A stretch of 64,000 nucleotides of DNA from an uncultured Azospirillum sp. (GCA_965650625.1 CBFGPE010000004.1:23115-87114); one strand, 5' to 3'; counted from the stretch's first letter, positions 6,274-23,276 are shown. Made by a program: numbers and translations. Notes: a model not told the origin generated them from the sequence alone.

Positions 6274-6707
6274 GGCGCGTCCTTCCTGTCCGTCGGCATG
6301 CCGTTCGGCCGGGGGCGAATGCCGTTGGCCAGTAAAAGGAAAATAACCACCCATTGTGCGCACCGCAATCCAAATGCCGCCATCCTGGCAACCGGGCCAG
6401 GAGTGAATATCCAAGTATGAGGCGGCGTCTTCCGCCGCATCGGCATGCCGCCGATCCAGGAAGACGGAAGGGCCGTTCCCTGTATTCCCTTGGTTTCCAC
6501 CGCCTCGACGGGCATTGGCAGGAAGATTCCACAAGCAAGTTGAGGATAATAAATAAAGAGAGAATCAACGCTCACTTTGCCGATCCGTTATTGATAAAAA
6601 TTGATGTTTCCATTCGGCCTGTGGCGTAATATCAAAAGTGTATATCGGCCGCGCGCCCTTTATAGGAAAATATTCTGCCTTCAACCCTCGCGCATTCCAG
6701 GGCTTCC

Positions 6708-8759
6708 ATGATCAAGACAGAGTTCAAGAGCAATGTTAAGAAGGCTCCAAAGGTCAGCTTTGTTCTTCTTGATTGGAAGTGCAGGGAAAGCTTCCACTCC
6801 CTCGATTACTTGGCGGAGCAGGATGTTCCGCGACATGATTACGAAATCATCTGGATTGAATATTATGCTCACACGTCAAAAGAAATAAGTGAAAAGATAT
6901 CTGACTATAGCGATAATAATCGTCCGGCGCCCATTGACCTTTGGCTTATTATGAATATGCCGGATGACCTATACTATCATAAGCACCTAATGTATAATAT
7001 TGGGATTGCGAAGAGTCGGGGTGATATTGTCATCATCTGCGACTCTGATGCGATGTTCACAAAATCCTTTGTTCGGACGGTGATCGAAACCTTCGAACGC
7101 ACGCCTGAAATTGCCCTGCACTTTGACGAGGTGCGCAATTCCAAACAGGATTTTTATCCCTTCAACTATCCGCCGTTCGAGTTGCTGACCGGGGATGGGG
7201 CGATCAATTGGCGCGACGGCAAGACCACCGGGCTGTGGGACACCGAGGACCCGCTGCATAGCCGCAATTACGGGGCATGCCTGTGTGCCAGGCGTTCCGA
7301 CCTGATCGCCATCGGCGGCGCCGATGAACACATGGATTACCTTGGCCATGTCTGCGGCCCGTACGAGCTGACCTTCCGCCTCGTCAACAAAGGCCTGAAG
7401 GAGGTCTGGCACGAAAGCGAGTTCCTGTACCACACCTGGCATCCGGGATCCGACGGCGACTTCAACTACATCGGCCCCACCGATGGCCGGCACATGTCCT
7501 CCACCGCGCTCGAGGCGCTGGAGAACGGTCGCATCATGCCGCTCACCGAGAACCCGGTCATCCGCCACGAGCGCGAAAACGGGGTGCCGCCGGCGAACGG
7601 CCAGTTCATCAATCCCGCCTGCCTGAAGGCCTGGACGCAGGAAGAGGTGGCGAAGTCGCCCCGCTTCAAGCTCTTCAAGCGCGGCCAGGGCGGCACCAAG
7701 CTGGTGCGGGAACTGGCCACCTACAACATCCTGTCCTACGACGGCAAATTCTACGGCGTCCCGCATTCCCTGGGGCCGGTTGATCTGGCCAGGAAGGAGG
7801 ACCGGGAAAAGCCGCAGATCGTCGAGGGGGCCTCGGCCGACGAGATCGAGGCGCTTCTCGCCGGGGGCCCGCCCCCCGCGCCCGTCGCGGCGCTTCCCGT
7901 GCAGCAGCCCTCCCAGCCCTCCAGACCGCGGGGCGTCCGGGCTCCTCCGGTTCTGGTCGGTATGGCCGGGCCTTTCAACGTGGTCTCCTATGACGACGCC
8001 TATTTCGGCGTTCCGACCTCGCTGGGACCGGTCGACCTGGCGGATCCGGCCCAGCGCGCCTTGCCGGAAATCCTGAAGGCCTCGACATGGAGCGACGTGG
8101 ACTCGATGATCCGGGCGCAACGCCTGATCCGGCTGGAGGTGGAGAGCCGTGCCCGGGAACAGATGCTGGAGCAGTTGCGGGCGGAACTTGCCGCCAAGGA
8201 CGCGATGATCGCGGACTTCCTGGACACGATCACCACCATGCGCGGTGAAAGCCAAAGCTGGGGTGAGGAGCGCGAGCGCCTGCGTCGCGAGCTGTTCAGC
8301 CTGCAGTTCCGCTTGAACGGTGCCGAGCTGCTCGACACGTTCACGCCGACCGACATCGCGGAGCGCCGTGCCGACGGCATCCGCGTCACCGCCGACAAGC
8401 CGGCCGGCTGTTTCCTGCACGGCTCGCGCCTGTCGCTGGGCAAGGGCAAGTACACGCTCGACATCTGGGGCGCAAGGCAGCACGCGTCCGCAGCGGGGCT
8501 GCCGGTTTTGAGCGTGGATCTGATCAGCAACGGCACGACCACCATCGGGACGTTCAACACCGAGCACTTCGCCGAAACGGCCACGCTGGTTTCGCTGGTG
8601 TTCCAGCTGAACGATGCGCCCACCAACGCCGGGCACGAGTTCGAAATCCGCCTCACCCACTATGGCCGCGTGGATCTGGTTGTCTCGAGGGTGCGGCTGC
8701 GCTTGACCTCCGATACGGGCGCAGCTTCCCCGGTGGGTCTTCACAGACAGCATGCATGA
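6708..8759 (+). CDS. GT2-like glycosyltransferase with internal repeats, coiled coil and C-terminal beta-rich domain
   Basis: GT-A-like N-terminus (KVSFVLLDW...SRGDIVIICDSDAMF...IGGADEHMDY...LYHTWHPG) and two copies of [YF]NxxSYDxxxxGVPxSLGPVDLA. Confidence 0.75.
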   Translation: MIKTEFKSNVKKAPKVSFVLLDWKCRESFHSLDYLAEQDVPRHDYEIIWIEYYAHTSKEISEKISDYSDNNRPAPIDLWLIMNMPDDLYYHKHLMYNIGIAKSRGDIVIICDSDAMFTKSFVRTVIETFERTPEIALHFDEVRNSKQDFYPFNYPPFELLTGDGAINWRDGKTTGLWDTEDPLHSRNYGACLCARRSDLIAIGGADEHMDYLGHVCGPYELTFRLVNKGLKEVWHESEFLYHTWHPGSDGDFNYIGPTDGRHMSSTALEALENGRIMPLTENPVIRHERENGVPPANGQFINPACLKAWTQEEVAKSPRFKLFKRGQGGTKLVRELATYNILSYDGKFYGVPHSLGPVDLARKEDREKPQIVEGASADEIEALLAGGPPPAPVAALPVQQPSQPSRPRGVRAPPVLVGMAGPFNVVSYDDAYFGVPTSLGPVDLADPAQRALPEILKASTWSDVDSMIRAQRLIRLEVESRAREQMLEQLRAELAAKDAMIADFLDTITTMRGESQSWGEERERLRRELFSLQFRLNGAELLDTFTPTDIAERRADGIRVTADKPAGCFLHGSRLSLGKGKYTLDIWGARQHASAAGLPVLSVDLISNGTTTIGTFNTEHFAETATLVSLVFQLNDAPTNAGHEFEIRLTHYGRVDLVVSRVRLRLTSDTGAASPVGLHRQHA

Positions 8760-8822
8760 CGGGGCGGCTCTGCCGGAGGCCGGCCAGAAACAGATCATTC
8801 GCTTTCCAGCGGAGGGGACGGA

Positions 8823-9167
8823 GTGTCCAACAGGATGTTTGAGCAGCGTCTTGCCACGGCCGAGAAGCGGATGGCCGAACGAGACCCGCGGAACCAGGAG
8901 CTGTCGGCCTTGGTCGAAGAGGTGGGCGAGCAGAATCGGCTGCTCCGGCACGCCTTGAACGAACAGGACAAGCGCATCCGGTCCCTGGAAGCCGCCTTGG
9001 CCGAACAGGCTCGCGTGCTTCAGGCCATCCGGGGGGAACTCGCGGACTCCGGCAGGCCAGTGGATGGCGGCCCGGCTCTTCTCAGCCTGTCGGCCCGCGT
9101 TCAGCTGATCGACGATGCGCTGACCGACCTTCGCCTTGCTGTTTTGGAAAGGTCCGGCACCCGGTAG
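8823..9167 (+). CDS. Hypothetical coiled-coil protein
   Basis: GTG start after GGAGGGG, heptad-like helical sequence, and it fills the gap between co-oriented genes. Confidence 0.6.
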   Translation: MSNRMFEQRLATAEKRMAERDPRNQELSALVEEVGEQNRLLRHALNEQDKRIRSLEAALAEQARVLQAIRGELADSGRPVDGGPALLSLSARVQLIDDALTDLRLAVLERSGTR

Positions 9168-9202
9168 AGTGCCGCCGCCCGGCCATTCGGGCCGGGGGGC
9201 TG

Positions 9203-11734
9203 ATGAAAGAGAGCAGCATGTTTATCCATTTCGACCTGCCCCGTGCCGCCGGGGATTCGCTGATGGACTGTGTCGAGCGCGTCTATGGTGCGTCGCGGGT
9301 GCTGCATCTTGGACACGGGCTTCGTTTCGATATGTCGTACGAGTCCCTGCTCAGCAAAACACCTGACGAACTTGATCTGATAAAGAACCACTACGGATGT
9401 GCGGTGACGAAGCATGCCTTCTCTCTGCACAAGATACTCGGGGCTCCGTACGTTGGTTTCATTCGAAATCCCTTTGACTGGTATGTTTCTTCATATTATT
9501 GGGCACGAAAGAACAGTCTGGGGAACCCGTCTGAATTTTACGGGTATATGATCGATAAACATGATATGTCATTGGAGTATTTTGTTCATTGGCTTCACGA
9601 CATAGGTCACGACAATAATCAGGCCAAGAATATTTTATACCTTTCAAAAGATCACGACAGCGTCCTGCCTCCGGATCCGGCGGACATCACCCTCGATGAA
9701 GCGAGTTTCGCCCAGACCATCGAACTGACTGAGACCGCGTTCGCGGTTCTTGCGCCGACCGATCTGTTCGGTCCGGCGCTCTATGTCATGGGCATGCTGT
9801 TCGACTGGCCGGACCTGCCGCTGTGGCGGCTGCGCTCTTCGTCCAACTGGCGCGCCTCGGCGTCGATCCCCGACACGCTCGAGGACTTCGTGCGCGAGCG
9901 CAGCCCCCATGACTGGAACCTGTTCGCCGCCGTCCGCAAAGGGTTCGAACAGCGTTATGCCGATGTTCTGACCGCCCGCGCCGCCGAGATCGCGGACTAC
10001 GACGCCTGCTCGCGGAACCCCGCCTGGCAGGACGCGATGCCGTTTCATGTCCGCGACGTTCAGGATCATCTCCAGCAGGGCATCCGCCTTCAGGCACCGC
10101 CGCCCCGCGACCCGGCCGCCGTCCCCGGCGCCCTGCGGGGGAACTGCATGTCGGGGCTCAAGCTGCATCTTCACGGCGTGGTCCATGGGCATTTCCTGCT
10201 GTCGCCCCGCCGGGACAGCCCGCCCTTCCTGGCCGTGCCGATGGTCAGCCTGATCCACCAGACCGCCGATCCGGACCGGCTCTGGCCATTCTACGGCCCG
10301 GGCGTTCTGTTCGACCGGTCGCTGGAAGGGCTCCGGCAACGGATCGAGGCGGGAGAGGTCCCGAGCCTGGTGGAAAGTCAGGGGGATCTCCAGATCTGGT
10401 TCTACCGAGGCGCGTACCGGTTCCTGGAGTGGGCGGCCGGCGCCGACATCGACGCGGTGTATGGCGATCCCGAGCGGACGCTGGGCGGTTCCCTCCAGGC
10501 CACGGACTGGCCGACGGCCCGTCTGTTCTTCACGCTGTTCACCGATCCGTTCCAGCGGCAGCGGATCGACGGGTTCGGCATCGTCGAAGGGGTGGAGGCT
10601 GAGCCCTGGAGGGCCGAACCGACGGCCGGCGGACCGGCGGTCACCGCCCCGTCCCTGCTGCGGTTGCTCGAAGCGCTGCAGGGCAGCGGGCGCCTTTCCC
10701 TGCGGTCGCCACCGCCGTTCCTGATCGACAGCCTGACCGACTACAATCTGGTCAAGTACCAGGGCCGGAATTACGGCGCGCGCCAGGGGGCCGGGGATCT
10801 GGAAGCCCTGCTGGCGGAGCCGGGGGAAAACCTCGTCGAGGCTGCGGCGCTGACGGATGTGCGGCGGGCGATCATCGACCGCTGGCTCTCTCACCGGTCG
10901 CCGGATCCCCACCTGATCGAAACCCTGGGCGTGACCAACATCGTCCTGTTCCGGGACCGTTTCGTCGCGTTGCCGCAAGCCCTCGGGGCCGTCGATTTGT
11001 CCGATCCCGCGACGTTCCACCTGCCCGGCGTGATCGTCAGCCGCAGCCGGACTCGCCTGCGGCATCTGGTCGCAACGGAAGCCGCCGGCCAGGACGTGAA
11101 CACGCAGGCGGGCACCGCACCGACCTCGGACGACCGTCCGGCGCCCCTGCTGCCGGACGCGTCCGGAAAGGGGCGGCTGTTCTGGCTGACCGGTTTGTCC
11201 GGGGCTGGCAAGACCACGGTCGCCCTGCGTGTGTGCGCGCGGCTGCGGGCAGCCGGGCTGCCGGCGGTGCTGCTCGACGGCGACCGCCTGCGGGCCGCCA
11301 TCGCTCCCGATGCCGGTCACGCCCCCGACCAGCGCCGCCAGCTGGCCTTTTCCTACGCCCGTCTGTGCCGGGAACTGGCGGAGCAGGGGCTGGTCGTCGT
11401 CATCGCCACCATTTCGATGTTCCATGCGGTCCGCCACTGGAATCGCGAAAATGTGGACGGCTATCGCGAAATATACTTGCGCGTTCCGCTTGAGCACCGC
11501 GCCGATCGTGACCCGAAGGGCTTGTACCGTAACGCCACTGTGGATATGGTCGGAATGGATACCTCCATTGAGGAGCCGGATCAGCCAGATCTCGTAATTG
11601 ACAATTACGGCACGACGACTCCGGACGGCGCGGCCGACCTGATCTGGAACCGATTGATTGCGTCCGATGCGGCTCTGATCGGCTTATCGGCTGCAGCCCC
11701 CGAAGACGGGGCTTTGAAGAAACCCACACATTAA
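9203..11734 (+). CDS. Fusion: sulfotransferase-like N-terminal domain, repeat region, and C-terminal CysC/Cj1415-like kinase
   Basis: N-terminus FIHFDLPRAAGDS...FIRNPFDWYVSSYY resembles Sulfotransfer_2 motifs. C-terminus has WLTGLSGAGKTT, LLDGD, TISMF, RDPKGLY and EEPDQPDLVIDN. Confidence 0.8.
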   Translation: MKESSMFIHFDLPRAAGDSLMDCVERVYGASRVLHLGHGLRFDMSYESLLSKTPDELDLIKNHYGCAVTKHAFSLHKILGAPYVGFIRNPFDWYVSSYYWARKNSLGNPSEFYGYMIDKHDMSLEYFVHWLHDIGHDNNQAKNILYLSKDHDSVLPPDPADITLDEASFAQTIELTETAFAVLAPTDLFGPALYVMGMLFDWPDLPLWRLRSSSNWRASASIPDTLEDFVRERSPHDWNLFAAVRKGFEQRYADVLTARAAEIADYDACSRNPAWQDAMPFHVRDVQDHLQQGIRLQAPPPRDPAAVPGALRGNCMSGLKLHLHGVVHGHFLLSPRRDSPPFLAVPMVSLIHQTADPDRLWPFYGPGVLFDRSLEGLRQRIEAGEVPSLVESQGDLQIWFYRGAYRFLEWAAGADIDAVYGDPERTLGGSLQATDWPTARLFFTLFTDPFQRQRIDGFGIVEGVEAEPWRAEPTAGGPAVTAPSLLRLLEALQGSGRLSLRSPPPFLIDSLTDYNLVKYQGRNYGARQGAGDLEALLAEPGENLVEAAALTDVRRAIIDRWLSHRSPDPHLIETLGVTNIVLFRDRFVALPQALGAVDLSDPATFHLPGVIVSRSRTRLRHLVATEAAGQDVNTQAGTAPTSDDRPAPLLPDASGKGRLFWLTGLSGAGKTTVALRVCARLRAAGLPAVLLDGDRLRAAIAPDAGHAPDQRRQLAFSYARLCRELAEQGLVVVIATISMFHAVRHWNRENVDGYREIYLRVPLEHRADRDPKGLYRNATVDMVGMDTSIEEPDQPDLVIDNYGTTTPDGAADLIWNRLIASDAALIGLSAAAPEDGALKKPTH

Positions 11735-11749
11735 ACCGAAATAGGGACT

Positions 11750-12526
11750 TTGGATCATATGCGCGGTCATGGCGATTTCACCGGGTTGGCAGAAAAATAT
11801 TCGAAATACCGCCCGACCTATTCGGCGACGGTCCGGGACGCGCTGATCGGCATGCTGCCGAAGCCGGCCGGGGAAGTCGAGGCAGCCGACGTCGGCGCCG
11901 GCACCGGCATCTGGACCCGTCTCGTGGCCGAACGGGTCCGCCATGTCACGGCGGTCGAGCCCAATGACGACATGCGCCGGCTCGGCATCGCCGATTCCGC
12001 CGGTCACCGGATCGAATACCGTGTCGGCTCCGGTGAGCAGACCGGCCTTGCCGACGCCTCGGTGGACATGGTCAGCATGGCGTCGTCCTTCCACTGGGTC
12101 GATTTCGAGCGCGGCCTGGCCGAGTTCCACCGCATCCTGCGTCCGGAAGGCCGCTTCGTCGCGCTGTGGAACCCGCGCCTGATCGATGCCAATCCCCTGC
12201 TGGTGGAGATCGAGGCGGAGATCACCCGGCTGGCCCCGGAAGTCGAGCGGGTGTCGTCCGGCAATTCCGGCATCACCGGGACCCTGACCGAGCGGCTGTG
12301 GGCCAGCCGGCAGTTCGACGACGTGGTCTATCTGGAAGGCCGTCACACCGTCGACCAGACCCCCGAACAGTATCTGGGCGTCTGGAATTCGGTGAACGAC
12401 GTGCGCCACCAGCTCGGCCCCGATCGCTGGGCCGCCTTCATGGCCTTCGTCGAGGCGCGGATCGCCGGCCTCGACGTGATCACCACCACCTATCGCACCC
12501 GTGCCTGGTCTGCACGCCGTCGGTGA
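11750..12526 (+). CDS. Class I SAM methyltransferase (Cj1419-like MeOPN methyltransferase candidate)
   Basis: YSKYRPTY, ADVGAGTG, AVEPNDDMR, ASSFHW, and C-terminal TRAWSARR. Confidence 0.85.
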   Translation: MDHMRGHGDFTGLAEKYSKYRPTYSATVRDALIGMLPKPAGEVEAADVGAGTGIWTRLVAERVRHVTAVEPNDDMRRLGIADSAGHRIEYRVGSGEQTGLADASVDMVSMASSFHWVDFERGLAEFHRILRPEGRFVALWNPRLIDANPLLVEIEAEITRLAPEVERVSSGNSGITGTLTERLWASRQFDDVVYLEGRHTVDQTPEQYLGVWNSVNDVRHQLGPDRWAAFMAFVEARIAGLDVITTTYRTRAWSARRR

Positions 12527-12534
12527 GACTGCCC

Positions 12535-14889
12535 ATGGACACCTCCGCCTTAACGCGCCGGATCGCCTTCGGCAGCAAAGCCGAAACCCTGGAGCGCCTC
12601 GCACCGCATTTGAGGACGGCGCACGTCCTCGATCTGGTTCGCTTCCGGGCCGTCGATTGGAACGCGGGCGGCATGGAGGCGATCCTCGACCGCATCGCCT
12701 CCACACCGTGGGGCAGGCGGGGGCCTCTGATCGTCCGGTCTTCCGCCGCGGCGGAGGACCGGGAAGGGCAGTCCCTGGCCGGGCATTTCGTATCGATCGG
12801 CAACGTCGATCCGGCCGGGCTGCCGGCCGCCATCGCCGAGGTGGCGGCCTCCTTCGGGGATGAGCCGGTAGCGGCGGACCAGATCTTCGTCCAGCCCATG
12901 CTGACGGCCGCCATGAGCGGCGTCGCCTTCACCCGGGATCCCAACACCGGCGCTCCCTACCTGATCATCAATTACGAGGAGGGCGGCGACACCGCGGCGG
13001 TCACCGGCGGCCACGCCGCCGAATTGAAGACCTTCGTCTATTGGAAGGGCGCCACGGTGCCGTGCCCGTCCCCCCTCGACCAGGTCGTGGCGCTCGCCGG
13101 CGAACTGGAAGCGCTGCTCGGGGAGGAAAGCCTCGACATCGAGTTCGCGGTCTCGCCGACCGGCGAGCTGTACCTGTTCCAGGTGCGGCCGCTGTCCGCC
13201 GCCGCCGGAACGGCCGTCGGCGCCGACGAGCACCGGCCGCTGCTGGAAGCCATCGCCCAGAAGATCGCCCAGGCCAATCGGCCGCACCCCTACCTGCGCG
13301 GCCGCCGCACCCTGTACGGCGTCATGCCCGACTGGAACCCGGCCGAAATCATCGGCATCCGGCCACGGCCGCTGGCGCTGTCGCTGTACCGGCAGCTGGT
13401 CACCGACAGCGTCTGGGCCTACCAGCGCCACAATTACGGCTACCGGAACCTGCGCAGCTTTCCGCTGATGCGGTCCTTCCATGGGCTGCCGTACATCGAC
13501 GTCCGCCTCAGCTTCAATTCCTTCATTCCGGGCGACGTGCCGGACACGCTCGCCGACCGTCTGGTGGACTGCTACATCGACCAGCTCGCGGCGGCACCGG
13601 TGCTCCACGACAAGGTCGAGTTCGAGATCGTCTTCTCCTGCTACACCTTCGACCTCGACACCCGCCTGCAACGTCTGCGCGGCTTCGGCTTCTCGGAGCG
13701 CGATCTCGAAGAGCTGACCCAGAGCCTGCGTCGGCTGACCAACCGGATCATCCACCGCGAAACCGGCTTGTGGCGCAACGACAGCAAGAAGATCGGGATC
13801 CTGGAGGAGCGGCAGCGGACCATCCGCAGCACCGACATGGACATCGTCAGCCGCATCTATTGGCTGATGGAGGATTGCAAGCGCTACGGCACCCTGCCTT
13901 TCGCCGGCTTGGCCCGCGCCGGCTTCATCGCCGTCCAGATGCTGAAGTCGCTGGTGGCGGTCGGCGCGATCGAGCCGCAGCAGTACGACGCCTTCATGAC
14001 CAGCCTGGAGACCGTCAGCGGCCGCATGACCCGCGATCTGCGTGCCCTGTCCCGCTCGGAATTCCTGGAGAAATACGGGCACCTGCGTCCCGGGACCTAC
14101 GATATCCTGTCGCCGCGCTACGACGAGGATCCGGAACGCTACCTCGGTTCCGAGCACGGCGCCGGTCCGCACGACGAGGGCGCGGTGCCGACTTTCGCCC
14201 TGTCGCTGCCCCAGATGCGCCGGATCGACGCCCTCCTGAACCAGCACTCCCTGGAAATGGACGTGGTCAGCCTGTTCGACTTCTTCCAGGCCGGCATCCA
14301 GGGCCGCGAGCATTCGAAATTCGTCTTCACCCGGTCGCTGAGCGAGGTGCTGTCGCTGCTGAACCGCCTGGGCGAACGCTATGGATTGTCGCCGGACGAC
14401 ATGTCCTATTTCGATGCCTCTCTCATCGACGATCTCTACGCATCCAGCTGCGACATCGAGGCGACGCTGCGCCACAGCATCAGCCAGGGCCGCGCCCGCT
14501 ATGCGGAAACCCAGCGCATCGTTCTGCCGCCGCTGATCAGCCAGCCCGAGGAGGTCTGGGCGTTCCACATTCCTCCCACCGAACCCAACTTCATCACCCA
14601 GCGGACGGTGGAGGGGCCTGTGCGGTCGCACAAGGCGCCGGCGTCGGAGCTGAAGGGGGCGGTGGTGGTGATCCCCAGCGCCGATCCGGGCTTCGACTGG
14701 ATCTTCTCCCACGGCATCGGCGGCTTCATCACCGCCTATGGCGGGGTCAATTCCCACATGGCCATCCGCGCCGGCGAACTGAACCTTCCCGCCGTGATCG
14801 GGGCCGGGGAGACGCTGTTCAGCCAGTGGAAGGACAGCCGCCGCCTGCGCATCGACTGCGCATCCCGCCGGGTGGATGTCCTGCAATGA
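12535..14889 (+). CDS. PEP-synthase-like L-glutamine kinase (Cj1418-like)
   Basis: FGSKAETL, IVRSSAAAED, VQPML, DIEFA, YGVMPDWNPAEIIG, KRYGTLPFAGLARAGF, YGHLRPGTYDI, DPGFDWIF, and phospho-His motif GGVNSHMAIR. Confidence 0.9.
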   Translation: MDTSALTRRIAFGSKAETLERLAPHLRTAHVLDLVRFRAVDWNAGGMEAILDRIASTPWGRRGPLIVRSSAAAEDREGQSLAGHFVSIGNVDPAGLPAAIAEVAASFGDEPVAADQIFVQPMLTAAMSGVAFTRDPNTGAPYLIINYEEGGDTAAVTGGHAAELKTFVYWKGATVPCPSPLDQVVALAGELEALLGEESLDIEFAVSPTGELYLFQVRPLSAAAGTAVGADEHRPLLEAIAQKIAQANRPHPYLRGRRTLYGVMPDWNPAEIIGIRPRPLALSLYRQLVTDSVWAYQRHNYGYRNLRSFPLMRSFHGLPYIDVRLSFNSFIPGDVPDTLADRLVDCYIDQLAAAPVLHDKVEFEIVFSCYTFDLDTRLQRLRGFGFSERDLEELTQSLRRLTNRIIHRETGLWRNDSKKIGILEERQRTIRSTDMDIVSRIYWLMEDCKRYGTLPFAGLARAGFIAVQMLKSLVAVGAIEPQQYDAFMTSLETVSGRMTRDLRALSRSEFLEKYGHLRPGTYDILSPRYDEDPERYLGSEHGAGPHDEGAVPTFALSLPQMRRIDALLNQHSLEMDVVSLFDFFQAGIQGREHSKFVFTRSLSEVLSLLNRLGERYGLSPDDMSYFDASLIDDLYASSCDIEATLRHSISQGRARYAETQRIVLPPLISQPEEVWAFHIPPTEPNFITQRTVEGPVRSHKAPASELKGAVVVIPSADPGFDWIFSHGIGGFITAYGGVNSHMAIRAGELNLPAVIGAGETLFSQWKDSRRLRIDCASRRVDVLQ

Positions 14890-15524
14890 CGACGGTTCGG
14901 CCCGTGGCCGCGCGCCTGATCGCCGTCAGCCAGCGGGTGGACGTGATCGCCGGCCGCAACGAGCGGCGCGACGCTCTGGATCAGCGGTGGACCGGCTTCC
15001 TGGACGCCTGCGGCCTGCTGCCCGTGGCGATGCCCAACACGGCGTCGCCCGCTCTCGCGGCGGCTTGGCTTGAGGCGGTGGCTCCCGCCGGCATCCTGCT
15101 GACCGGCGGCAACGATCTGACGGCCTATGGCGGCGACGCCCCGGAACGCGACGCCGTGGAAACCCTGCTGATCGAGCATGCGGTCGCCCGGCGCATCCCG
15201 CTGATGGCCGTCTGTCGGGGCCTGCAGATGCTGATGCACCATTTCGGCGCCGGGCTGGAACGGGTGACGGGCCACACCGGCACCGAGCATCCGGTCGTCC
15301 TGGGCGATGGCGGGACGGACACCGTGAATTCCTACCACAATTGGGCCTTCACGAGCGTTCCGCCCGGTTTCACCGCCTGGGCGACCGCGCCCGACGGCGT
15401 GGTCGAGGCGGTTCGCCACGACACGTTGCCGCTGCTCGGCATGCTCTGGCATCCCGAACGCAATGCCCCCTACCGCGCCGCGGAGATCGATCTGGTCCGT
15501 CGTCATTTCGGGGTTGATCGGTAG
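14886..15524 (+). CDS. Class I glutamine amidotransferase-like gamma-glutamyl hydrolase (Cj1417-like)
   Basis: ATGA overlap with the kinase gene; LLTGGNDL, nucleophile elbow VCRGLQ, NSYH, and WHPER. Confidence 0.85.
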   Translation: MTTVRPVAARLIAVSQRVDVIAGRNERRDALDQRWTGFLDACGLLPVAMPNTASPALAAAWLEAVAPAGILLTGGNDLTAYGGDAPERDAVETLLIEHAVARRIPLMAVCRGLQMLMHHFGAGLERVTGHTGTEHPVVLGDGGTDTVNSYHNWAFTSVPPGFTAWATAPDGVVEAVRHDTLPLLGMLWHPERNAPYRAAEIDLVRRHFGVDR

Positions 15525-15574
15525 CGGGGGCTTGCTGCAACGTCCACGGGTCCGCCGCATCCGCGCCTTCCCGC

Positions 15575-15605
15575 TTTCCCTGAATTTGGTTTTCCCTGAA
15601 TTTGG
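15575..15605. repeat. 15-bp direct repeat (tttccctgaatttgg x2) just upstream of the cytidylyltransferase
   Basis: Copies at 15575-15589 and 15591-15605. Confidence 0.7.
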
Positions 15606-15614
15606 AGTGCTTCC

Positions 15615-16361
15615 GTGAAAGCGATCATCCTTGCCGCCGGGCGTGGCAGCCGCATGAAGGCCATGACCGAGGACCGGCCGAAGTGTCTGGTTGAAATCGC
15701 CGGGCGCAGCCTGCTGGACTGTCAGCGCACTGCCCTGACCGGTGCCGGCGCCGGCCCGCTGGCCGTGGTGCGCGGCTATCGCGGCGAGGCGTTCGAAGGA
15801 CGCGGGCTGACCCTGTTCGATAATCCCCGCTGGGCCGAAACCAACATGGTCATGTCGCTGGTCCAGGCAGCCCCGTGGCTGAGCGCCGAACCGTGCCTCG
15901 TCAGCTACGCCGACATCTTCTACCCGGCGGAGACGGTGCGCCGGCTGATGGCGGCCGAAGGCGACATCGTCATCAGCTACGATCCGGACTGGCTGGCCCT
16001 GTGGCAGGCCCGCTTCGCCGATCCGCTGGTCGATGCCGAGAGCTTCCTGCTCGACGCGACCGGCCGGGTCATCGACATCGGCCGCAAGGTCCAGAGCCTC
16101 GACGAGGTCCAGGGGCAGTACATGGGCCTGCTGAAATTCACTCCCGCCGGCTGGGCACAGGTCACCGGCTATCTCGACGGGCTGGAACCGGCGGCGCGCG
16201 ACAAGCTGGACATGACCGGCCTGCTGTCGCGGCTGATCGCCGCCGGCGTGGTCATCCGGGCGGTCCCCAGCGCTCCCGGCTGGGGCGAGGTCGATTCCGA
16301 AAGCGATCTCGACCATTATGCCGCGGAGGTGGCGGCCGGGCGCGTCGCGCTGCCGGTCTGA
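15615..16361 (+). CDS. Phosphocholine/phosphoglutamine cytidylyltransferase family (Cj1416-like)
   Basis: KAIILAAGRGSRM, PKCLV, TNMV, SYADI, W...RFADPLVDAES, QYMGLLKF, and WGEVDSESDL. GTG start. Confidence 0.85.
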   Translation: MKAIILAAGRGSRMKAMTEDRPKCLVEIAGRSLLDCQRTALTGAGAGPLAVVRGYRGEAFEGRGLTLFDNPRWAETNMVMSLVQAAPWLSAEPCLVSYADIFYPAETVRRLMAAEGDIVISYDPDWLALWQARFADPLVDAESFLLDATGRVIDIGRKVQSLDEVQGQYMGLLKFTPAGWAQVTGYLDGLEPAARDKLDMTGLLSRLIAAGVVIRAVPSAPGWGEVDSESDLDHYAAEVAAGRVALPV

Positions 16362-16432: not shown

Positions 16433-17497
16433 ATGAGTCGGCGTTTCATCGACCATGGAGACGGCACCCTCACCGATGCCGAGACCGGCCTGATGTGGCG
16501 AGCCGATGGCGGCACGCCCGATCTGCCGGGCGTGCCGGGCGGGCCGAAGCCGTGGTCGGGTCCCTTCGGCGCAACCCCCGCCGACCTGCCGACGCTGCGC
16601 ACCGGCTGCTATGGGCCGCTGCCCGACCTTGACCTCTCCGGCCGGCCGGTCGGCTACGCGGTGTTCGACTATATCGACGCGCTGAACGCCGCGGCCTTCG
16701 CCGGTTACACGGACTGGCGCCTGCCCAACGTCAACGAACTGGCCAGCCTGGTGAACGAGGCGGTGCCGCACAGCCATCTGTGGCTGATGGAGAACGGCTT
16801 CCGCAACATCGAAACCCACTGCAACTTCTGGAGCTCGACCACCTGCCACGGCCATCCCGAACAGGCGTGGCACGTCCACTTCACCAACAGCGGCAACGTC
16901 CACACCAGCTGCAAGGCGTGGTGCGCCCATCACGTGCTGCCGGTGCGCGGCCTGAACAGCGGCCCGCGCCGCTTCCTGCAGACCGGGCAGACCCTGTGCT
17001 ACAGCGCCGATCTGGTGCCGCAGCTCCTGCCGGACGGCAGCGGGCGCGGCCAGGATGGCGACCTGCGCCTGGGCACGCCCCGGCCGGCGGACCGCTTCGA
17101 GCTGCGCGACGGCGGGGCGGCCGGCCGGGTGGTGGTCGACCGCTTCCTGGGGCTGGCCTGGGCATCGCCGCTGAACCTGGGCATGCCCTGGGACGCCGCC
17201 ATGGAGATGGTGCCGCGATGCTATGCCGGCTATGGCGGGCTGGACGGCTGGCGCCTGCCGGAGCGGGAGGAACTGCGCTCGCTCACCAACTATGGCTGTT
17301 CCGATCTGCTGGGCCTGATGCATCAGGCCGGTTTCGAGGATGTGCGGAACGTCGATTACTGGACCGGAACGCCCTGTGCCAACGATCCCGACCGCCACGC
17401 ATGGTCATTCGGCCTGGGCTGGGGGCTTTACGGACGCGAGCGGGCCGGGTTCCGGGCGGGGGTATGGCCGGTCTGCCCTTTCCCGCAGCCGGTGTAG
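16433..17497 (+). CDS. Tandem DUF1566 (Lcl C-terminal) domain protein
   Basis: RFIDHGDGTLTDAETGLMW, GYTDWRLPNVNEL, FWSST, QTGQT, GQDGD, GWRLPEREEL, and YWTGT. Confidence 0.8.
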   Translation: MSRRFIDHGDGTLTDAETGLMWRADGGTPDLPGVPGGPKPWSGPFGATPADLPTLRTGCYGPLPDLDLSGRPVGYAVFDYIDALNAAAFAGYTDWRLPNVNELASLVNEAVPHSHLWLMENGFRNIETHCNFWSSTTCHGHPEQAWHVHFTNSGNVHTSCKAWCAHHVLPVRGLNSGPRRFLQTGQTLCYSADLVPQLLPDGSGRGQDGDLRLGTPRPADRFELRDGGAAGRVVVDRFLGLAWASPLNLGMPWDAAMEMVPRCYAGYGGLDGWRLPEREELRSLTNYGCSDLLGLMHQAGFEDVRNVDYWTGTPCANDPDRHAWSFGLGWGLYGRERAGFRAGVWPVCPFPQPV

Positions 17498-18663
17498 GAG
17501 AAGGCGCTGCCTGCACCGGCGCCGCCGCGCCGTCCCTGGCCATCCTGACCTCCCCGCCCTTTGCCTGCGGAGTGGCCTGGCTGGTCAACGTGCTGCTGGA
17601 ACTGGGCATCCGCACCACGCATTGGGGCACGGCCAAGGGCGGGGGCGGCGGCCCCTGGCGGGAGTGCGGCGACGGCTGGACGCTGGATGAACCGGCGCGG
17701 GCCCTGCTCAAATGGCATCTGCCCATCCTGCACCAGGACGAGCCGCTGCGCTTCCGCGACGGCCTGGAGGTGGTGTGGGAGCATCGTCTCGATCTGGCCC
17801 GCGAGCCGGGCGAGGCCGTCATCCTCTACCTGCGCGACCCGCGCGACGCCATCCATTCGCTGTACCGGCGCGACTACGCTCGGACCCTCGGTTATCATGC
17901 CTATCTCGACCGCCCGGACGTCTGGCCCGACCATTTTCCGAACCTGTTCTTTTTGCCGCCGCCCGAGACCTACCTGCTGTTCGTCCTGTTCTGGCTGACC
18001 GTCGGCGAGACGGTGCCGCTGCTGACCGTGACCTTCGAGGGCATGCGTGCCGATCCGGTCGGAACGGTGCGCCGCGTGCTCGCCCACCTGGGGCAGGCGC
18101 GGCCGGATGACGAGATCGTCCGCGCGCTGGAACGCTCCGGCTTCCATGCGGCACGCCAAGCCATGCTGCGCACCAGCGCCGAGCAGGGGACGGAGCGCCT
18201 GACCGCCGCCAAGGGTGAGGTCGGCGAATGGCGGACCACCCATGACGACGCGGCCCTCGCCCGCTTCGCCCGGCCGCTCGCCCGGTTCGAAGCGCTGCTG
18301 GCTGACCTGCCGGCCGCCGAGGCGGCCTGGCAGGCCAAGGCCATTCCACGCGATCCCTTCGGCTGGCTGGAGGCGGGTGCTCCGGCCGATCTGGCCGCGG
18401 TGCTGGCCGCTATGCCGGCGGTGGCAGACAAGCCGGCGGCGCACCTCTCTGCCCAAGCCGCGGTGGCGGCCGGCTGGTTCACCGCCCGGGCAGCCGGAGG
18501 ACCGGACTTCACGCTGTCGCTGCCGCGGCGTCTGTTCCTGCGCTTCTACGCCTTCCTTCTCGAAGGACTGGACTCCGCCCCCATCGACACCCTGCTCCGT
18601 TCCCGCCACATCGACCGCATCCACGAACTTTGCCGGGGGATGGTGGGAGCGATGCCGGAGTGA
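17464..18663 (+). CDS. Sulfotransferase-like protein
   Basis: LYLRDPRDAIHS, VTFEGMRADP, KGEVGEW, and a degenerate 5'-PSB loop (SPPFACGVAWL). Start uncertain. Confidence 0.65.
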   Translation: MAGLPFPAAGVGEGAACTGAAAPSLAILTSPPFACGVAWLVNVLLELGIRTTHWGTAKGGGGGPWRECGDGWTLDEPARALLKWHLPILHQDEPLRFRDGLEVVWEHRLDLAREPGEAVILYLRDPRDAIHSLYRRDYARTLGYHAYLDRPDVWPDHFPNLFFLPPPETYLLFVLFWLTVGETVPLLTVTFEGMRADPVGTVRRVLAHLGQARPDDEIVRALERSGFHAARQAMLRTSAEQGTERLTAAKGEVGEWRTTHDDAALARFARPLARFEALLADLPAAEAAWQAKAIPRDPFGWLEAGAPADLAAVLAAMPAVADKPAAHLSAQAAVAAGWFTARAAGGPDFTLSLPRRLFLRFYAFLLEGLDSAPIDTLLRSRHIDRIHELCRGMVGAMPE

Positions 18664-20253: not shown

Positions 20254-20300
20254 GGGGTGTGATCGCTTCAAAACGATTCCCGACGAAGTGATCACGCCCC
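20254..20300. terminator. 16-bp stem-loop (two G-U pairs) downstream of the tail-fibre cassette
   Basis: ggggtgtgatcgcttc-N15-gaagtgatcacgcccc. No U-tract, so it may instead be a palindromic repeat element. Confidence 0.45.
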
Positions 20301-20473
20301 ATGCAACGCCGCCAAGGATTTCTATAGAAGGAAGAAATCTTGGAGAACCACAATAAATAGCCTGTTGATAGTTTAGTCAATTCAGGCGGTACTCATGCCG
20401 AAGATTTCAGTGGCGCTTTGCGCCCATCTCAAGTTAATTATCATCGATCTTCGCATTTGAAGGAAATTGACTG

Positions 20474-21061
20474 GTGGCTCGAATATTTATGATTCGCCAT
20501 GGCAAATCCGCAGCGGGCTTTGACGAAGCGCTCGATGCCGATCTGTCGGAGCTTGGGCATCGGCAGGCAGCAATTGCGGCTGCTGCGGTTGCCCGCCGGC
20601 TGCCTCCTATGCCGATCATCGCCTCTCCGTTTCGAAGAGCCAGAAGTACAGCGGAACCTTTGGCCAGGGCATGGTGCCGGCCAATCGCAATTTCCCCTGA
20701 GATTACTGAAATTCCAACGCCGCCTCATTTGGGAGAAGACAATCTTGCGGCACGCCGTCCATGGCTTACCGCCATCATGGCCAGCCGATACGGAAATCTC
20801 GGCGATGAAATTGAGAACTGGCGTCAGAACTTGATTGATTTCGTTGCGAACACGAAACAAAATTCTATTTTATCTACTCATTATCTGACGATCAACGCCA
20901 TCGTCGGGGCTGCGCAGAACGATGATCGGGTGTCTTTGTGCGACCCGGGATATTGTACCGTGACGGTGCTGGAGGTCTGTAGCGGCCGGATTTCCGTTAT
21001 CGGTATCGGCCTTGACTACGATCAACTTCCCGCTGCTTCTCCTGATTTCGAACGGAATTGA
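20474..21061 (+). CDS. Histidine phosphatase (phosphoglycerate mutase-like)
   Basis: MIRHG motif, IASPFRRARST, and LSTHYLTIN. GTG start. Confidence 0.85.
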   Translation: MARIFMIRHGKSAAGFDEALDADLSELGHRQAAIAAAAVARRLPPMPIIASPFRRARSTAEPLARAWCRPIAISPEITEIPTPPHLGEDNLAARRPWLTAIMASRYGNLGDEIENWRQNLIDFVANTKQNSILSTHYLTINAIVGAAQNDDRVSLCDPGYCTVTVLEVCSGRISVIGIGLDYDQLPAASPDFERN

Positions 21062-21144
21062 TGAATACTGCCAAGCTCTCTTGTTTTAAGCTTGGCAGTG
21101 CTCTTATGCAAATCCTGCGCGAAAGGGGAACGTGGACGGAGCGT

Positions 21145-21879
21145 TCAGGCGCCGTCCACAGTGCGAGGCAAGCAGGGCTCGTAACCGAGCAGGGCAATTT
21201 CGGCGCCCAGCTCCTTGTCCCACGACTCCAGGGCTTCAGGCGAGAACAGGCGGCGCCATTCGCCTGAAACCCCTTTGCGGACGATATAACGATTTCTCAC
21301 CATCTCGCCGTCCGAACCGCGCGGGCGGTTGGACATGGCCTCGAAGGAGTATTTCGTGTCGTAAAGAGAGCGGATCCTCTGCTCTAGTTCCGGATTGCGG
21401 GTAAATCCATAGAACTCAAGCACATCAAGCGTTACTCCAACAGTGTCCTGCTTAAGCTCGTCGAACTTTATGACCTTTATCGGCCTTTCCCGGGCCAGGT
21501 CTACCCACTTGCATGCCTCTCGGATCGTGTTGGCGAAATTACCGTAAGCCAATCCGTGTAGTGTCTCCCGCAGCTTTGCTCGATCGACAATCCCGCGGAA
21601 AATGTGATCCTCGAGATACGAAATAGCTACATCACGAGGGTCTCTTTGCAAGAAAACAATTGATACTTCTTCACGCTCAAGAAATGGGATGAAGAAGTCG
21701 GAATTATTGTGTGTCCAATGAAAATAAGGGCTTGGCGGCGGATCGTCGACGAGTCGTCTGGTTGATTCTGGGCCGTAATTCAGAACATTTACTTGTATCG
21801 TTCTGAGGTAATCCTCCAAAATCGGCACTATTGCTGAGGATCCTGAGTAAAACAAATTACAGAAGATCAAATTCTTCAT
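21145..21879 (-). CDS. Sulfotransferase domain protein (AT-richer than flanks)
   Basis: FYSGSS loop, QRDPRDVAIS, KFDELKQD, and VRKGVSGEW. GAGGAAG RBS before ATG 21879. Confidence 0.8.
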   Translation of the reverse strand: MKNLIFCNLFYSGSSAIVPILEDYLRTIQVNVLNYGPESTRRLVDDPPPSPYFHWTHNNSDFFIPFLEREEVSIVFLQRDPRDVAISYLEDHIFRGIVDRAKLRETLHGLAYGNFANTIREACKWVDLARERPIKVIKFDELKQDTVGVTLDVLEFYGFTRNPELEQRIRSLYDTKYSFEAMSNRPRGSDGEMVRNRYIVRKGVSGEWRRLFSPEALESWDKELGAEIALLGYEPCLPRTVDGA

Positions 21880-22062
21880 TTCTTCCTCAGAATCGGAGCA
21901 AATGGCTATGCTGAAAGGTATAGCAATCCCGGTGTCACATACCAATGGGAATTTTCCTGCCTGGAAGACGATGGAGCGGCGGGCCTCAGCGTCACAATGG
22001 CATCCGCTGGACAAGGCAAGGGTAACCGTCCTCCGGCAGAAGGGACACCGGGTTTGCGTGGC

Positions 22063-23160: not shown

Positions 23161-23237
23161 GACATGACACTCCATCCAAAACCGAGCGGCCGAGATTAGG
23201 TGGTGGACGACCCGGCATCAATGCACTTGTGGCGCGA

Positions 23238-23276
23238 GGCCGCAGCCCCGCGGTCGCCGAATGCGGGGCTGCGGCC
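23238..23276. repeat. 14-bp perfect inverted repeat between divergent mtnA and mtnP
   Basis: ggccgcagccccgc-N11-gcggggctgcggcc. Confidence 0.7.

What the first reader, a model, noticed from the sequence alone, without database searches (positions are those of the whole stretch)
9203..16361. Apparently complete Campylobacter-type O-methyl phosphoramidate (MeOPN) pathway in an alphaproteobacterium
Seen: a contiguous + strand run of CysC-like kinase domain, methyltransferase, PEP-synthase-like kinase, glutamine amidotransferase-like hydrolase and cytidylyltransferase. Known: in C. jejuni, Cj1418 (Gln kinase), Cj1416 (cytidylyltransferase), Cj1417 (hydrolase), Cj1415 (3'-kinase) and Cj1419/1420 (methyltransferases) build the P-N-bonded MeOPN capsule modification, which affects phage and serum interactions. 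The motifs here match those recalled proteins, e.g. GVMPDWNPAEIIG, and TISMF rather than the CysC FISP. Inference: this organism decorates a surface glycan or glycoprotein with phosphoramidate.
Basis: partly seen in the sequence, partly recalled or inferred. Interest (0 to 1): 0.8.

Follow-up and report, generated by a model that had tools for sequence, protein, structure and literature searches.

The report
Phosphoramidate glycan-decoration cassette in Azospirillum
This Azospirillum plasmid island carries an intact five-gene set that very probably makes the rare phosphorus-nitrogen donor known from Campylobacter capsules. The set is widespread in bacteria, and here its last kinase is fused to a sulfotransferase-shaped domain that may be the still-unknown enzyme that attaches the group.

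Summary
Window 9203-16361 holds five tightly packed + strand genes:
- an 843-aa protein ending in an APS-kinase-like domain;
- a SAM methyltransferase;
- a 784-aa PEP-utilising kinase;
- a class-I amidotransferase-type hydrolase;
- a nucleotidyltransferase.

Curated profiles support the MeOPN-donor reading. The kinase scores 935 bits on NF004508 (cut-off 501). The hydrolase's best family is gamma-glutamyl-CDP-amidate hydrolase, although it scores below that model's cut-off. The kinase domain passes NF004041, while the genome's two CysC paralogs do not.

The cassette is not special to this organism. All five genes lie within about 5 kb in 60 of 80 loci from many phyla. It occurs in at least 590 species genomes, in 10 of 69 species of the genus, and in about 3% of sampled Pseudomonadota. 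The same island sits on plasmid AZO_p6 of A. lipoferum 4B under generic names.

"Complete" is only partly shown. No transferase is proven, no C. jejuni sequence could be fetched for reciprocal BLAST, and no chemistry was done.

The most interesting point is new. The kinase is fused to a sulfotransferase-fold domain, and sulfotransferase-family genes abut the cassette in many other loci. The methyltransferase occurs only where the kinase does. Together these suggest a PAPS-like transfer route.

Verdict: new member of a known kind, moderate interest.

The parts
9203..11734 (+). 843-aa fusion protein with three parts: a sulfotransferase-fold domain (aa 1-~300), a repeat-bearing middle region (aa ~300-640), and a Cj1415-type (cytidine diphosphoramidate 3'-kinase-like) APS-kinase-family domain (aa 657-800; DNA ~11171-11602).
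   Evidence: Kinase domain: Pfam APS_kinase 4.8e-29; NF004041 136 bits against a cut-off of 127. Its motifs are TISMF and LDGDRLR, whereas the genome's own CysC paralogs have FISPF/LISPL and LDGDNVR.

N-terminal domain: AlphaFold2 with an alignment gives pLDDT 89 and pTM 0.88. The top Foldseek PDB hit is heparan sulfate 2-O-sulfotransferase, E 6e-5. Remote relatives hit Pfam Sulfotransfer_2 and Gal-3-O_sulfotr.
11750..12526 (+). Class I SAM-dependent methyltransferase of the cassette (the public gene call starts at 11759, giving 255 aa).
   Evidence: Methyltransf_11 2.2e-18. Present in 68 of 80 related loci at a median 58% identity, the most conserved of the five genes. Found only where the kinase is present in an independent AT-rich sample: 12/30 against 0/26.
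12535..14889 (+). L-glutamine kinase-type enzyme (Cj1418 family): an ATP-grasp/PPDK_N domain plus a phosphohistidine swivel domain.
   Evidence: NF004508 (PRK05849) 935 bits against a cut-off of 501; the next hit in the genome scores 30 bits. His741 lies in an invariant GGVNSHMAIRA motif. Proteins 65-68% identical are named 'glutamine kinase' by JGI.
14886..15524 (+). Gamma-glutamyl-CDP-amidate hydrolase-like class-I amidotransferase (Cj1417 type).
   Evidence: The best NCBIfam is NF045546 at 106 bits. That is below the cut-off of 250, but the next family scores 56 bits and the next hit in the genome 32 bits. The Cys110/His189/Glu191 triad is conserved in 72 loci. Its start codon overlaps the stop codon of the kinase gene by 4 bp.
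15615..16361 (+). Nucleotidyltransferase, the probable CTP:phosphoglutamine cytidylyltransferase (Cj1416 type).
   Evidence: NTP_transf_3 9e-19. The ILAAGRGSR...PK motif is conserved. Present in 76 of 80 loci, always in the G-H-C order.
16433..17497 (+). DUF1566/Lcl_C protein, probably part of the transfer machinery (acceptor binding?).
   Evidence: Lcl_C 1e-39. A relative of the p843 sulfotransferase-like domain (P0126, 925 aa) is fused to an Lcl_C domain 42% identical to this protein.
17464..18663 (+). Sulfotransferase-family protein with a non-canonical phosphosulfate-binding (5'-PSB) loop (SPPFACG); a second candidate phosphoramidate transferase.
   Evidence: Sulfotransfer_1 1.4e-7. Relatives of this family lie next to the cassette in 8 other loci from different orders.
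6708..8759 (+). GT2-like glycosyltransferase at the head of the same co-directional gene run. It shares a repeated ~45-aa module with the middle region of the 843-aa protein.
   Evidence: Glycos_transf_2 2.8e-5. tblastn similarity between GT683 and the p843 middle region is 22-27% identity.
20474..21061 (+). Histidine phosphatase family protein in a low-GC insert; a possible phosphatase for the 3'-phospho-CMP by-product (speculative).
   Evidence: His_Phos_1 2.6e-15. GC is 0.54 at 20-22 kb. In 11 of 80 other loci a CysQ/IMPase-like gene sits inside the cassette.
21145..22014 (-). Sulfotransferase-domain protein in the same low-GC insert (the public call is 21145-21879).
   Evidence: Sulfotransfer_1 5.2e-18.

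Best explanation
The five genes form one operon-like cassette. It makes an activated phosphoramidate donor by the route worked out for Campylobacter jejuni.

Proposed steps:
1. [quoted passage not shown]
2. The nucleotidyltransferase joins the product to CMP, giving CDP-L-glutamine.
3. The Cys-His-Glu hydrolase releases glutamate, leaving cytidine diphosphoramidate.
4. The APS-kinase-like domain adds a 3'-phosphate, giving a PAPS-like cofactor.

What is shown here is the family membership and intactness of the enzymes, and their strict co-inheritance.

What is inferred:
- The 3'-phosphorylated donor is used by sulfotransferase-fold proteins. These are the N-terminal domain fused to the kinase and/or the 399-aa protein downstream. 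They would put phosphoramidate on a hydroxyl of a glycan built by the surrounding glycosyltransferase island.
- The conserved methyltransferase supplies the O-methyl group, either on the cofactor or on the transferred group.
- The acceptor is unknown. The island has many TPR-GT41 enzymes and type I secretion genes but no polysaccharide exporter, so a glycoprotein is plausible.
For: Profile matches:
- NF004508 scores 935 bits (cut-off 501). It is unique in the genome.
- NF045546 is the best family for the hydrolase and that gene is the model's best hit in the genome, 106 against 32 bits.
- NF004041 passes only for the cluster's kinase domain (141 bits). The two CysC paralogs score 110 bits.

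Catalytic residues are conserved: His741; Cys110/His189/Glu191; GRGSR; the P-loop.

Cassette conservation:
- In 80 loci: K 77, M 68, G 80, H 72, C 76.
- All five genes are present in 60 loci, with a median span of 5 kb.
- The orders KMGHC and KGHCM dominate.

The kinase subfamily has TIS[LM]F in place of the APS-binding FISP motif.

Sulfotransferase link:
- The fused N-terminal domain has a sulfotransferase fold and keeps the 3'-phosphate-binding motif RNPxDWYxSSYYW.
- Sulfotransferase-family genes lie 0-81 bp from the cassette in other loci.
- CysQ-like genes sit inside the cassette in 11 loci.

In an independent AT-rich sample the methyltransferase occurs only with the kinase, p=1.7e-4.

Against: - No C. 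jejuni sequence could be retrieved, so no reciprocal best-hit test against Cj1415-Cj1422 was done.
- The hydrolase is below its equivalog cut-off (106 against 250 bits).
- No specific model exists for the cytidylyltransferase.
- NF004508 is labelled only 'hypothetical protein'. Its link to Cj1418 rests on JGI naming and on my own knowledge.
- The genome has PAPS-making genes, so the sulfotransferase-family proteins could be ordinary sulfotransferases.
- The association statistics are not corrected for phylogeny or contig length.
- The acceptor is not identified. No flagellin gene lies on this contig.
Confidence: 0.75

Rival explanations
1. The APS-kinase-like domain and the sulfotransferase-family proteins form an ordinary sulfation system: PAPS supply plus glycan sulfotransferases. 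On this view it merely lies beside a glutamine-kinase module, and phosphoramidate is transferred by something else or not at all.
For: The genome can make PAPS, since it has two CysC-type paralogs. ST289 is a good Sulfotransfer_1 match. V. alfacsensis pVa1 has cysDN next to its cassette. The sulfotransferase fold is known only for sulfuryl transfer.
Against: - The kinase subfamily travels with the glutamine kinase in 77 of 80 loci and is often fused to it.
- It has lost the FISP APS-binding motif that the genome's own CysC paralogs keep.
- The fused sulfotransferase-like clade has replaced the 5'-phosphosulfate loop HIPKTAGT by FDLPRAAGDS, while keeping the 3'-phosphate motif.
- Sulfotransferase-family genes are enriched where K and M are present.
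Confidence: 0.15
2. The cassette makes a phosphoramidate donor for a small secreted metabolite or lipid head group rather than for a surface glycan or glycoprotein.
For: In an Agrobacterium vitis plasmid the G-H-C triad sits with a CDP-alcohol phosphatidyltransferase, LysE exporters, a TauD dioxygenase and an aminoacyl-tRNA-ligase-like gene. It has no kinase and no glycosyltransferases. P-N natural products exist (PMC6429109).
Against: Here the cassette lies inside a >60-kb island of glycosyltransferases, sugar-nucleotide enzymes and TPR-GT41 proteins. It is co-directional with a GT2-like gene that shares a module with the fusion protein.
Confidence: 0.07
3. The genes are an inactive, horizontally acquired relic with no current product.
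For: - Distribution in the genus is patchy, 10 of 69 species.
- The island is plasmid-borne.
- GC is lower at 6-10 kb and 20-22 kb.
- A neighbouring GDP-fucose synthase gene is truncated relative to strain 4B.
Against: All five reading frames are intact and keep the residues that are >=95% conserved in the family. The genes are 96-97% identical in protein between this genome, A. lipoferum 4B and A. ramasamyi, and are identical on several metagenome contigs.
Confidence: 0.03

Closest known systems
Campylobacter jejuni O-methyl phosphoramidate (MeOPN) pathway, Cj1415-Cj1422
   Same: Same four enzyme families for the donor: glutamine kinase, cytidylyltransferase, gamma-glutamyl-CDP-amidate hydrolase and 3'-kinase. 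Same kinase-hydrolase-cytidylyltransferase gene order. A SAM methyltransferase is adjacent, and the whole sits in a glycan-biosynthesis island.
   Different: - The 3'-kinase is fused to a sulfotransferase-fold domain and a repeat region.
- There is one methyltransferase instead of two.
- There are no poly-G tracts.
- No recognised Cj1421/Cj1422-type transferase was found, although homology could not be tested.
- The cassette is plasmid-borne in a soil/rhizosphere alphaproteobacterium.
- The island has no capsule export genes, so the acceptor is probably different.
PAPS / sulfotransferase system (CysC APS kinase, sulfotransferases, CysQ)
   Same: A 3'-phosphorylated nucleotide donor is made by an APS-kinase-family enzyme. 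Sulfotransferase-fold proteins lie next to it, and in 11 of 80 related loci a CysQ/IMPase-type phosphatase is also present. The 3'-phosphate-binding motif of the transferase fold is kept.
   Different: - The kinase lacks the FISP APS-binding motif.
- The transferase clade has an altered 5'-phosphosulfate loop (Lys to Arg, Thr to Asp).
- The presumed group transferred is phosphoramidate, not sulfate, and the nucleotide is cytidine.
Phosphoramide-bearing lipopolysaccharides of Xanthomonas campestris and Shewanella sp. MR-4
   Same: These are non-Campylobacter Gram-negative surface glycans with P-N groups (cited in PMC3907429). They show that such decorations exist outside Campylobacter.
   Different: Those groups lack the O-methyl. 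Their biosynthetic genes are not linked to this cassette in anything I could test.
CDP-donor transferases (TagF-like CDP-glycerol glycerophosphotransferases; CDP-alcohol phosphatidyltransferases)
   Same: They are found next to the G-H-C core in other lineages. They are an alternative way of using a CDP-linked phosphoryl donor.
   Different: They are not present in this window. Their presence is not linked to the 3'-kinase.

Membership tests
C. jejuni-type phosphoramidate donor pathway (Cj1415-Cj1418) | L-glutamine kinase: ATP-grasp plus PEP-utiliser phosphohistidine domain, of the Cj1418 family | tested here: met
   NF004508 935 bits against a cut-off of 501, and unique in the genome. PPDK_N and PEP-utilizers domains are present. 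His741 is invariant. The link of the model to Cj1418 rests on JGI's 'glutamine kinase' names for 65-68% identical proteins and on my own knowledge.
C. jejuni-type phosphoramidate donor pathway (Cj1415-Cj1418) | Gamma-glutamyl-CDP-amidate hydrolase (Cj1417): class-I amidotransferase fold with a Cys-His-Glu triad | tested here: inconclusive
   NF045546 is the best family (106 bits, E 2e-30) and this gene is the model's best hit in the genome (106 against 32 bits). However, it is below the curated cut-off of 250. The triad C110/H189/E191 is conserved.
C. jejuni-type phosphoramidate donor pathway (Cj1415-Cj1418) | CTP:phosphoglutamine cytidylyltransferase (Cj1416) | tested here: inconclusive
   There are only general matches (NTP_transf_3; LicC/MurU-like PDB hits) and no specific model or solved Cj1416 entry was found. 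Position after the hydrolase is conserved in 76 of 80 loci.
C. jejuni-type phosphoramidate donor pathway (Cj1415-Cj1418) | Cytidine diphosphoramidate 3'-kinase (Cj1415): APS-kinase family, distinct from CysC | tested here: met
   NF004041 136-141 bits against a cut-off of 127, while the two CysC paralogs score 110. TIS[LM]F replaces FISP in >=90% of 77 cassette kinases.
C. jejuni-type phosphoramidate donor pathway (Cj1415-Cj1418) | Reciprocal best hits to the C. jejuni proteins themselves | not testable with these tools
   No Campylobacter sequence was reachable. The genome-contig scan returned only closer relatives. The AT-rich metagenome scan gave marine contigs. The Raushel papers were not held.
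Complete MeOPN system (donor + transfer + methylation) | MeOPN transferase of the Cj1421/Cj1422 type | not testable with these tools
   No reference sequence was available. Candidates here are sulfotransferase-fold proteins.
Complete MeOPN system (donor + transfer + methylation) | SAM methyltransferase dedicated to the pathway | tested here: inconclusive
   A Methyltransf_11 gene is inside the cassette. It is present in 68 of 80 loci at 58% median identity, and occurs only with the kinase. Orthology to Cj1419/Cj1420 is untested, and their function is itself unassigned (PMC11800397).
Complete MeOPN system (donor + transfer + methylation) | P-N bonded O-methyl phosphoramidate on a glycan | not testable with these tools
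   This needs 31P / 1H-31P NMR or mass spectrometry.
Sulfotransferase superfamily (N-terminal domain of the 843-aa protein) | Sulfotransferase fold | tested here: met
   The model has pLDDT 89 and pTM 0.88. Foldseek ranks 1-36 are all sulfotransferases, and the best is HS 2-O-sulfotransferase 4ndz (E 6e-5, prob 1.0, TM 0.48).
Sulfotransferase superfamily (N-terminal domain of the 843-aa protein) | 3'-phosphate-binding motif (R-x-P-x-x-R/W-x-x-S) | tested here: met
   R88, P90 and S96 are invariant across the alignment, including canonical Sulfotransfer_2 proteins.
Sulfotransferase superfamily (N-terminal domain of the 843-aa protein) | Canonical 5'-phosphosulfate loop with catalytic Lys (H-I-P-K-T-G-G-T) | tested here: not met
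   The loop reads FDLPRAAGDS in the window and its six close relatives: Lys to Arg and Thr to Asp. There is no direct Pfam hit for the domain itself.

The most novel reading that the evidence does not exclude
Sulfotransferase-fold proteins are the long-sought phosphoramidate transferases. They would use 3'-phospho-cytidine diphosphoramidate the way sulfotransferases use PAPS.

On this reading the kinase, the methyltransferase and the sulfotransferase-fold enzyme form one optional 'PAPS-like' sub-module. It is added to a universal glutamine kinase-hydrolase-cytidylyltransferase core. The very conserved methyltransferase would act on the common cofactor or on the phosphoramidate group, not on the variable glycan.

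The 843-aa protein in this window would then be a natural fusion of cofactor maker and cofactor user.
Probability: 0.4. Interest if true: 0.8.

Novelty: new member of a known kind. Interest (0 to 1): 0.55.

Why it matters
A 2019 review still describes O-methyl phosphoramidate sugars as found only in Campylobacter (PMC6429109). As of 2025 the steps that attach and methylate the group remain unassigned (PMC11800397, PMC12409886).

This locus sits in A. lipoferum 4B and its relatives, which are harmless, culturable and genetically tractable plant-associated bacteria. That gives a convenient system for three tests:
- whether P-N decorated glycans are common in soil bacteria;
- whether sulfotransferase-fold enzymes perform the transfer;
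- where the methyl group is added.

The fusion protein is a ready-made hint about which enzyme uses the 3'-phosphorylated donor.

Tried and rejected
1. Reciprocal comparison with C. jejuni Cj1415-Cj1422 was not possible.
- The single genome-contig scan returned the 80 closest of at least 590 hits, none of them Campylobacter.
- The PDB holds no entry named for Cj1415-Cj1418 among the hits.
- The four Taylor/Raushel papers were not held.
- A metagenome scan with an AT-rich MPDWNPAE pattern returned mostly marine contigs. I used these as an independent sample instead.

2. A single-sequence structure prediction of the N-terminal domain failed (pLDDT 39). It succeeded with an alignment.

3. Family 'fam16' is the commonest neighbour of the cassette (24 of 80 loci, mostly Acidobacteriota).
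- It has no Pfam hit.
- hhalign could not link it to sulfotransferases, but hhalign did not link known sulfotransferase families to each other either.
- The top PDB profile hits are the sulfotransferases TEG12 and Teg14, but only at E 0.3, which is not significant. I leave it as suggestive only.

4. Flagellin as acceptor: there is no flagellin gene on this contig, so this is not supported by adjacency.

5. The promoter/terminator scan gave nothing above shuffles.

7. The methyltransferase has no informative solved relative.

Full report
**What is there**

Window 9203-16361 contains five co-directional, tightly packed genes (gaps 16, 9, -4 and 91 bp):
- an 843-aa protein whose residues 657-800 are an APS-kinase-family domain;
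- a 255-258-aa class I SAM methyltransferase;
- a 784-aa protein with PPDK_N (ATP-grasp) and PEP-utiliser swivel domains;
- a 212-aa Peptidase_C26/GATase protein, whose start overlaps the previous stop;
- a 248-aa NTP_transf_3 nucleotidyltransferase.

Public gene calls on identical metagenome contigs give the same genes.

The run continues upstream with a GT2-like 683-aa protein (6708-8759). Downstream it continues with a DUF1566/Lcl_C protein (16433-17497) and a 399-aa sulfotransferase-family protein (17464-18663).

**Which organism**

The glutamine-kinase-like protein is 97% identical to proteins of Azospirillum thiophilum and A. lipoferum. The same island, in the same order, lies on the 296-kb plasmid AZO_p6 of A. 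lipoferum 4B.

RefSeq gives the genes there only generic names: adenylyl-sulfate kinase, class I SAM-dependent methyltransferase, PEP-utilizing enzyme, gamma-glutamyl-GABA hydrolase family, and phosphocholine cytidylyltransferase family. So the organism is indeed an alphaproteobacterium, and the pathway is not recognised in its public annotation.

**Identity of the enzymes**

- The 784-aa protein scores 935 bits on NCBIfam NF004508/PRK05849 (equivalog, cut-off 501). The next hit in the whole genome is 30 bits. JGI names 65-68% identical proteins 'glutamine kinase'. The swivel-domain histidine (His741, GGVNSHMAIRA) is invariant in 21 diverse relatives.
- The hydrolase's best family is NF045546, gamma-glutamyl-CDP-amidate hydrolase (106 bits; next family 56). 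Searching that model against the genome returns this gene first (106 against 32 bits). However, the score is below the model's cut-off of 250, so strict membership is inconclusive. Its Cys110/His189/Glu191 triad is conserved.
- The kinase domain passes NF004041 (136-141 bits, cut-off 127). The genome's two CysC-type paralogs do not (110 bits). In 77 cassette kinases the APS-binding FISP motif is replaced by TIS[LM]F, and LDGDNVR by LDGDxLR. The genome's own CysC paralogs keep the canonical forms.
- The nucleotidyltransferase has only general matches (LicC/MurU/GlmU-like), but it keeps the GRGSR...PK signature.

[quoted passage not shown] The four enzyme types here fit that scheme, and the order kinase-hydrolase-cytidylyltransferase equals Cj1418-Cj1417-Cj1416.

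I could not fetch any C. jejuni sequence.

**How common it is**

The best 80 are 49-97% identical. They come from Alpha-, Beta- and Gammaproteobacteria, Acidobacteriota, Planctomycetota, Gemmatimonadota, Verrucomicrobiota, Bacteroidota, Chlamydiales, Sericytochromatia and others.
- In these 80 loci the window's kinase domain, methyltransferase, glutamine kinase, hydrolase and cytidylyltransferase have homologues in 77, 68, 80, 72 and 76 loci. Median identities are 51, 58, 54, 48 and 52%. None of the other window proteins recurs.
- All five genes occur together in 60 of 80 loci within a median 5.0 kb, mostly in the orders K-M-G-H-C (as here) or K-G-H-C-M.
- Within the genus the kinase is present in 10 of 69 species. 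In an even sample of the phylum it is present in 13 of 400 other genomes. It is also found on plasmids of Vibrio, Cupriavidus, Agrobacterium, Roseovarius and others.

So this is a mobile, patchily distributed accessory cassette, not a peculiarity of this bacterium. A 2019 review still states that such sugars are known only from Campylobacter (PMC6429109). PMC3907429 notes un-methylated phosphoramide groups in Xanthomonas and Shewanella LPS.

**The transfer step**

The N-terminal 300 residues of the 843-aa protein have no Pfam hit. An exhaustive search of 1.84 billion representatives found only six close relatives and about 115 remote ones. Of the 40 aligned sequences, 33 hit Pfam Gal-3-O_sulfotr or Sulfotransfer_2.

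With this alignment AlphaFold2 gives a confident model (pLDDT 89, pTM 0.88). Foldseek ranks 1-36 in the PDB are all sulfotransferases, led by heparan sulfate 2-O-sulfotransferase (E 6e-5).

The domain keeps the motif that binds the 3'-phosphate of PAPS (RNPxDWYxSSYYW). Its 5'-phosphosulfate loop is changed in the whole clade from HIPKTAGT to FDLPRAAGDS. This is what one would expect if the nucleotide 3'-phosphate is kept but the transferred group is different.

The close relatives have varied architectures:
- one full fusion (839 aa);
- three without the kinase domain;
- one fused instead to an Lcl_C domain 42% identical to the window's own Lcl_C protein. This ties that downstream gene to the same function.

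**Comparative support**

In the 80 loci, recognised sulfotransferase-family genes occur in 24. They lie 0-81 bp from the cassette. An unassigned family with sulfotransferase-like motifs ('fam16') occurs in 24 more, which brings the total to 45 loci because three carry both kinds. A CysQ/IMPase-type phosphatase sits inside the cassette in 11. The window's 399-aa sulfotransferase-family protein has relatives next to the cassette in 8 loci of different orders.

A second, independent sample of 120 AT-rich, mostly marine loci has kinases about 36% identical to the window's. It again shows the G-H-C core (101, 85 and 72 loci), with the kinase (49) and methyltransferase (20) as optional parts. Sulfotransfer_3 (9 loci) and TagF-like genes (8 loci) are recurrent neighbours.

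Among its 56 loci of 8 kb or more:
- the methyltransferase is found only where the 3'-kinase is (12/30 against 0/26, p=1.7e-4);
- sulfotransferase genes go with the methyltransferase (p=0.008) and tend to go with the kinase (7/8 against 23/48, p=0.056);
- TagF-like genes do not go with the kinase.

The pooled figures are stronger but confounded by sample and flank length. None of these tests corrects for shared ancestry.

**Reading**

- Shown: an intact, conserved cassette of the enzyme families that make the Campylobacter phosphoramidate donor.
- Inferred, about 0.75: it makes 3'-phospho-cytidine diphosphoramidate here.
- Inferred, about 0.4: sulfotransferase-fold proteins, including the domain fused to the kinase, transfer the phosphoramidate in a PAPS-like manner. 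The methyltransferase, the most conserved of the five proteins, would then act on the common cofactor or group rather than on the variable glycan.

As of 2025 the literature leaves Cj1419/Cj1420 unassigned and the decoration steps uncharacterised (PMC11800397, PMC12409886). No held paper mentions sulfotransferases together with the MeOPN transferases.

**Acceptor**

The acceptor is unknown. The surrounding >60 kb on AZO_p6 and in the window encode:
- TPR-GT41, GT2, GT4 and WavE proteins;
- sugar-nucleotide enzymes and several methyltransferases;
- a C39-peptidase ABC transporter with HlyD;
- an RTX metalloprotease.

They encode no Wzx/Wzy or ABC-2 polysaccharide exporter. No flagellin gene is on the contig. 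A secreted or flagellar glycoprotein is therefore as likely as LPS or EPS.

**Rivals**

- The sulfotransferase-family proteins may be ordinary PAPS-dependent enzymes (0.15).
- The product may be a small molecule or lipid head group, as the A. vitis variant suggests (0.07).
- The cassette may be a relic (0.03).

**Verdict**

This is a new member of a known kind, common in nature, with one feature of real interest: the sulfotransferase-fold/kinase fusion.

Noticed in passing
window 5294-6073 (-) against L092 8764-9735: The GDP-L-fucose synthase gene is called as only 259 aa here and on identical metagenome contigs. A. lipoferum 4B has an intact 972-bp gene at the same place.
   Followed up: no
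window 20300-22050: A low-GC (0.54) insert carries a histidine-phosphatase-family gene (+) and a Sulfotransfer_1 gene (-). It sits between the C1q-like cassette and the methionine-salvage genes mtnA/mtnP. It looks like a separate acquisition.
   Followed up: partly
window 7700-8400 and 10100-11100: The C-terminal half of the GT2-like 683-aa protein and the middle region of the 843-aa protein share a repeated ~45-aa module (...Y-x-G-x-F/Y-G-x-P-x-x-L-G-P/A-V-D-L...). tblastn identity is 22-27%. The module may bring both enzymes to one substrate or complex.
   Followed up: partly
L094 (Agrobacterium vitis plasmid pRvVAT039a) 8911-14000: This locus has the glutamine kinase-hydrolase-cytidylyltransferase triad without the 3'-kinase or methyltransferase. 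It is joined to a CDP-alcohol phosphatidyltransferase, two LysE exporters, a TauD dioxygenase, an asparaginase and an aminoacyl-tRNA-ligase-like gene, and is flanked by transposases. It looks like a small-molecule or lipid phosphoramidate cluster.
   Followed up: no
L093 (Vibrio alfacsensis pVa1) 5448-14022: A 1002-aa kinase-glutamine kinase fusion and the hydrolase lie beside cysDN, a TagF-like CDP-glycerol glycerophosphotransferase gene and a PEP-CTERM/XrtA exopolysaccharide locus.
   Followed up: no
L007 (JAEYRB010000001.1): A 4.6-kb contig binned as a 'Bacillota bacterium' MAG encodes a kinase 97% identical to the Azospirillum one. This is probably a binning contaminant.
   Followed up: no
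window 22063-24279: The methionine-salvage genes mtnA (-) and MTA phosphorylase (+) sit inside the glycan island, next to several SAM-dependent enzymes. Their link to the island is unclear.
   Followed up: no
L020-L078 (24 loci, e.g. L036:14589-15464:-): A ~300-aa family without any Pfam hit lies a median 81 bp from the cassette, usually on the opposite strand, mainly in Acidobacteriota. It has the motifs GLFGTGRxYINE and YRHPLDSLLTNW. It may be a further sulfotransferase-like transferase family (PDB profile hits TEG12/Teg14 at only E 0.3).
   Followed up: partly
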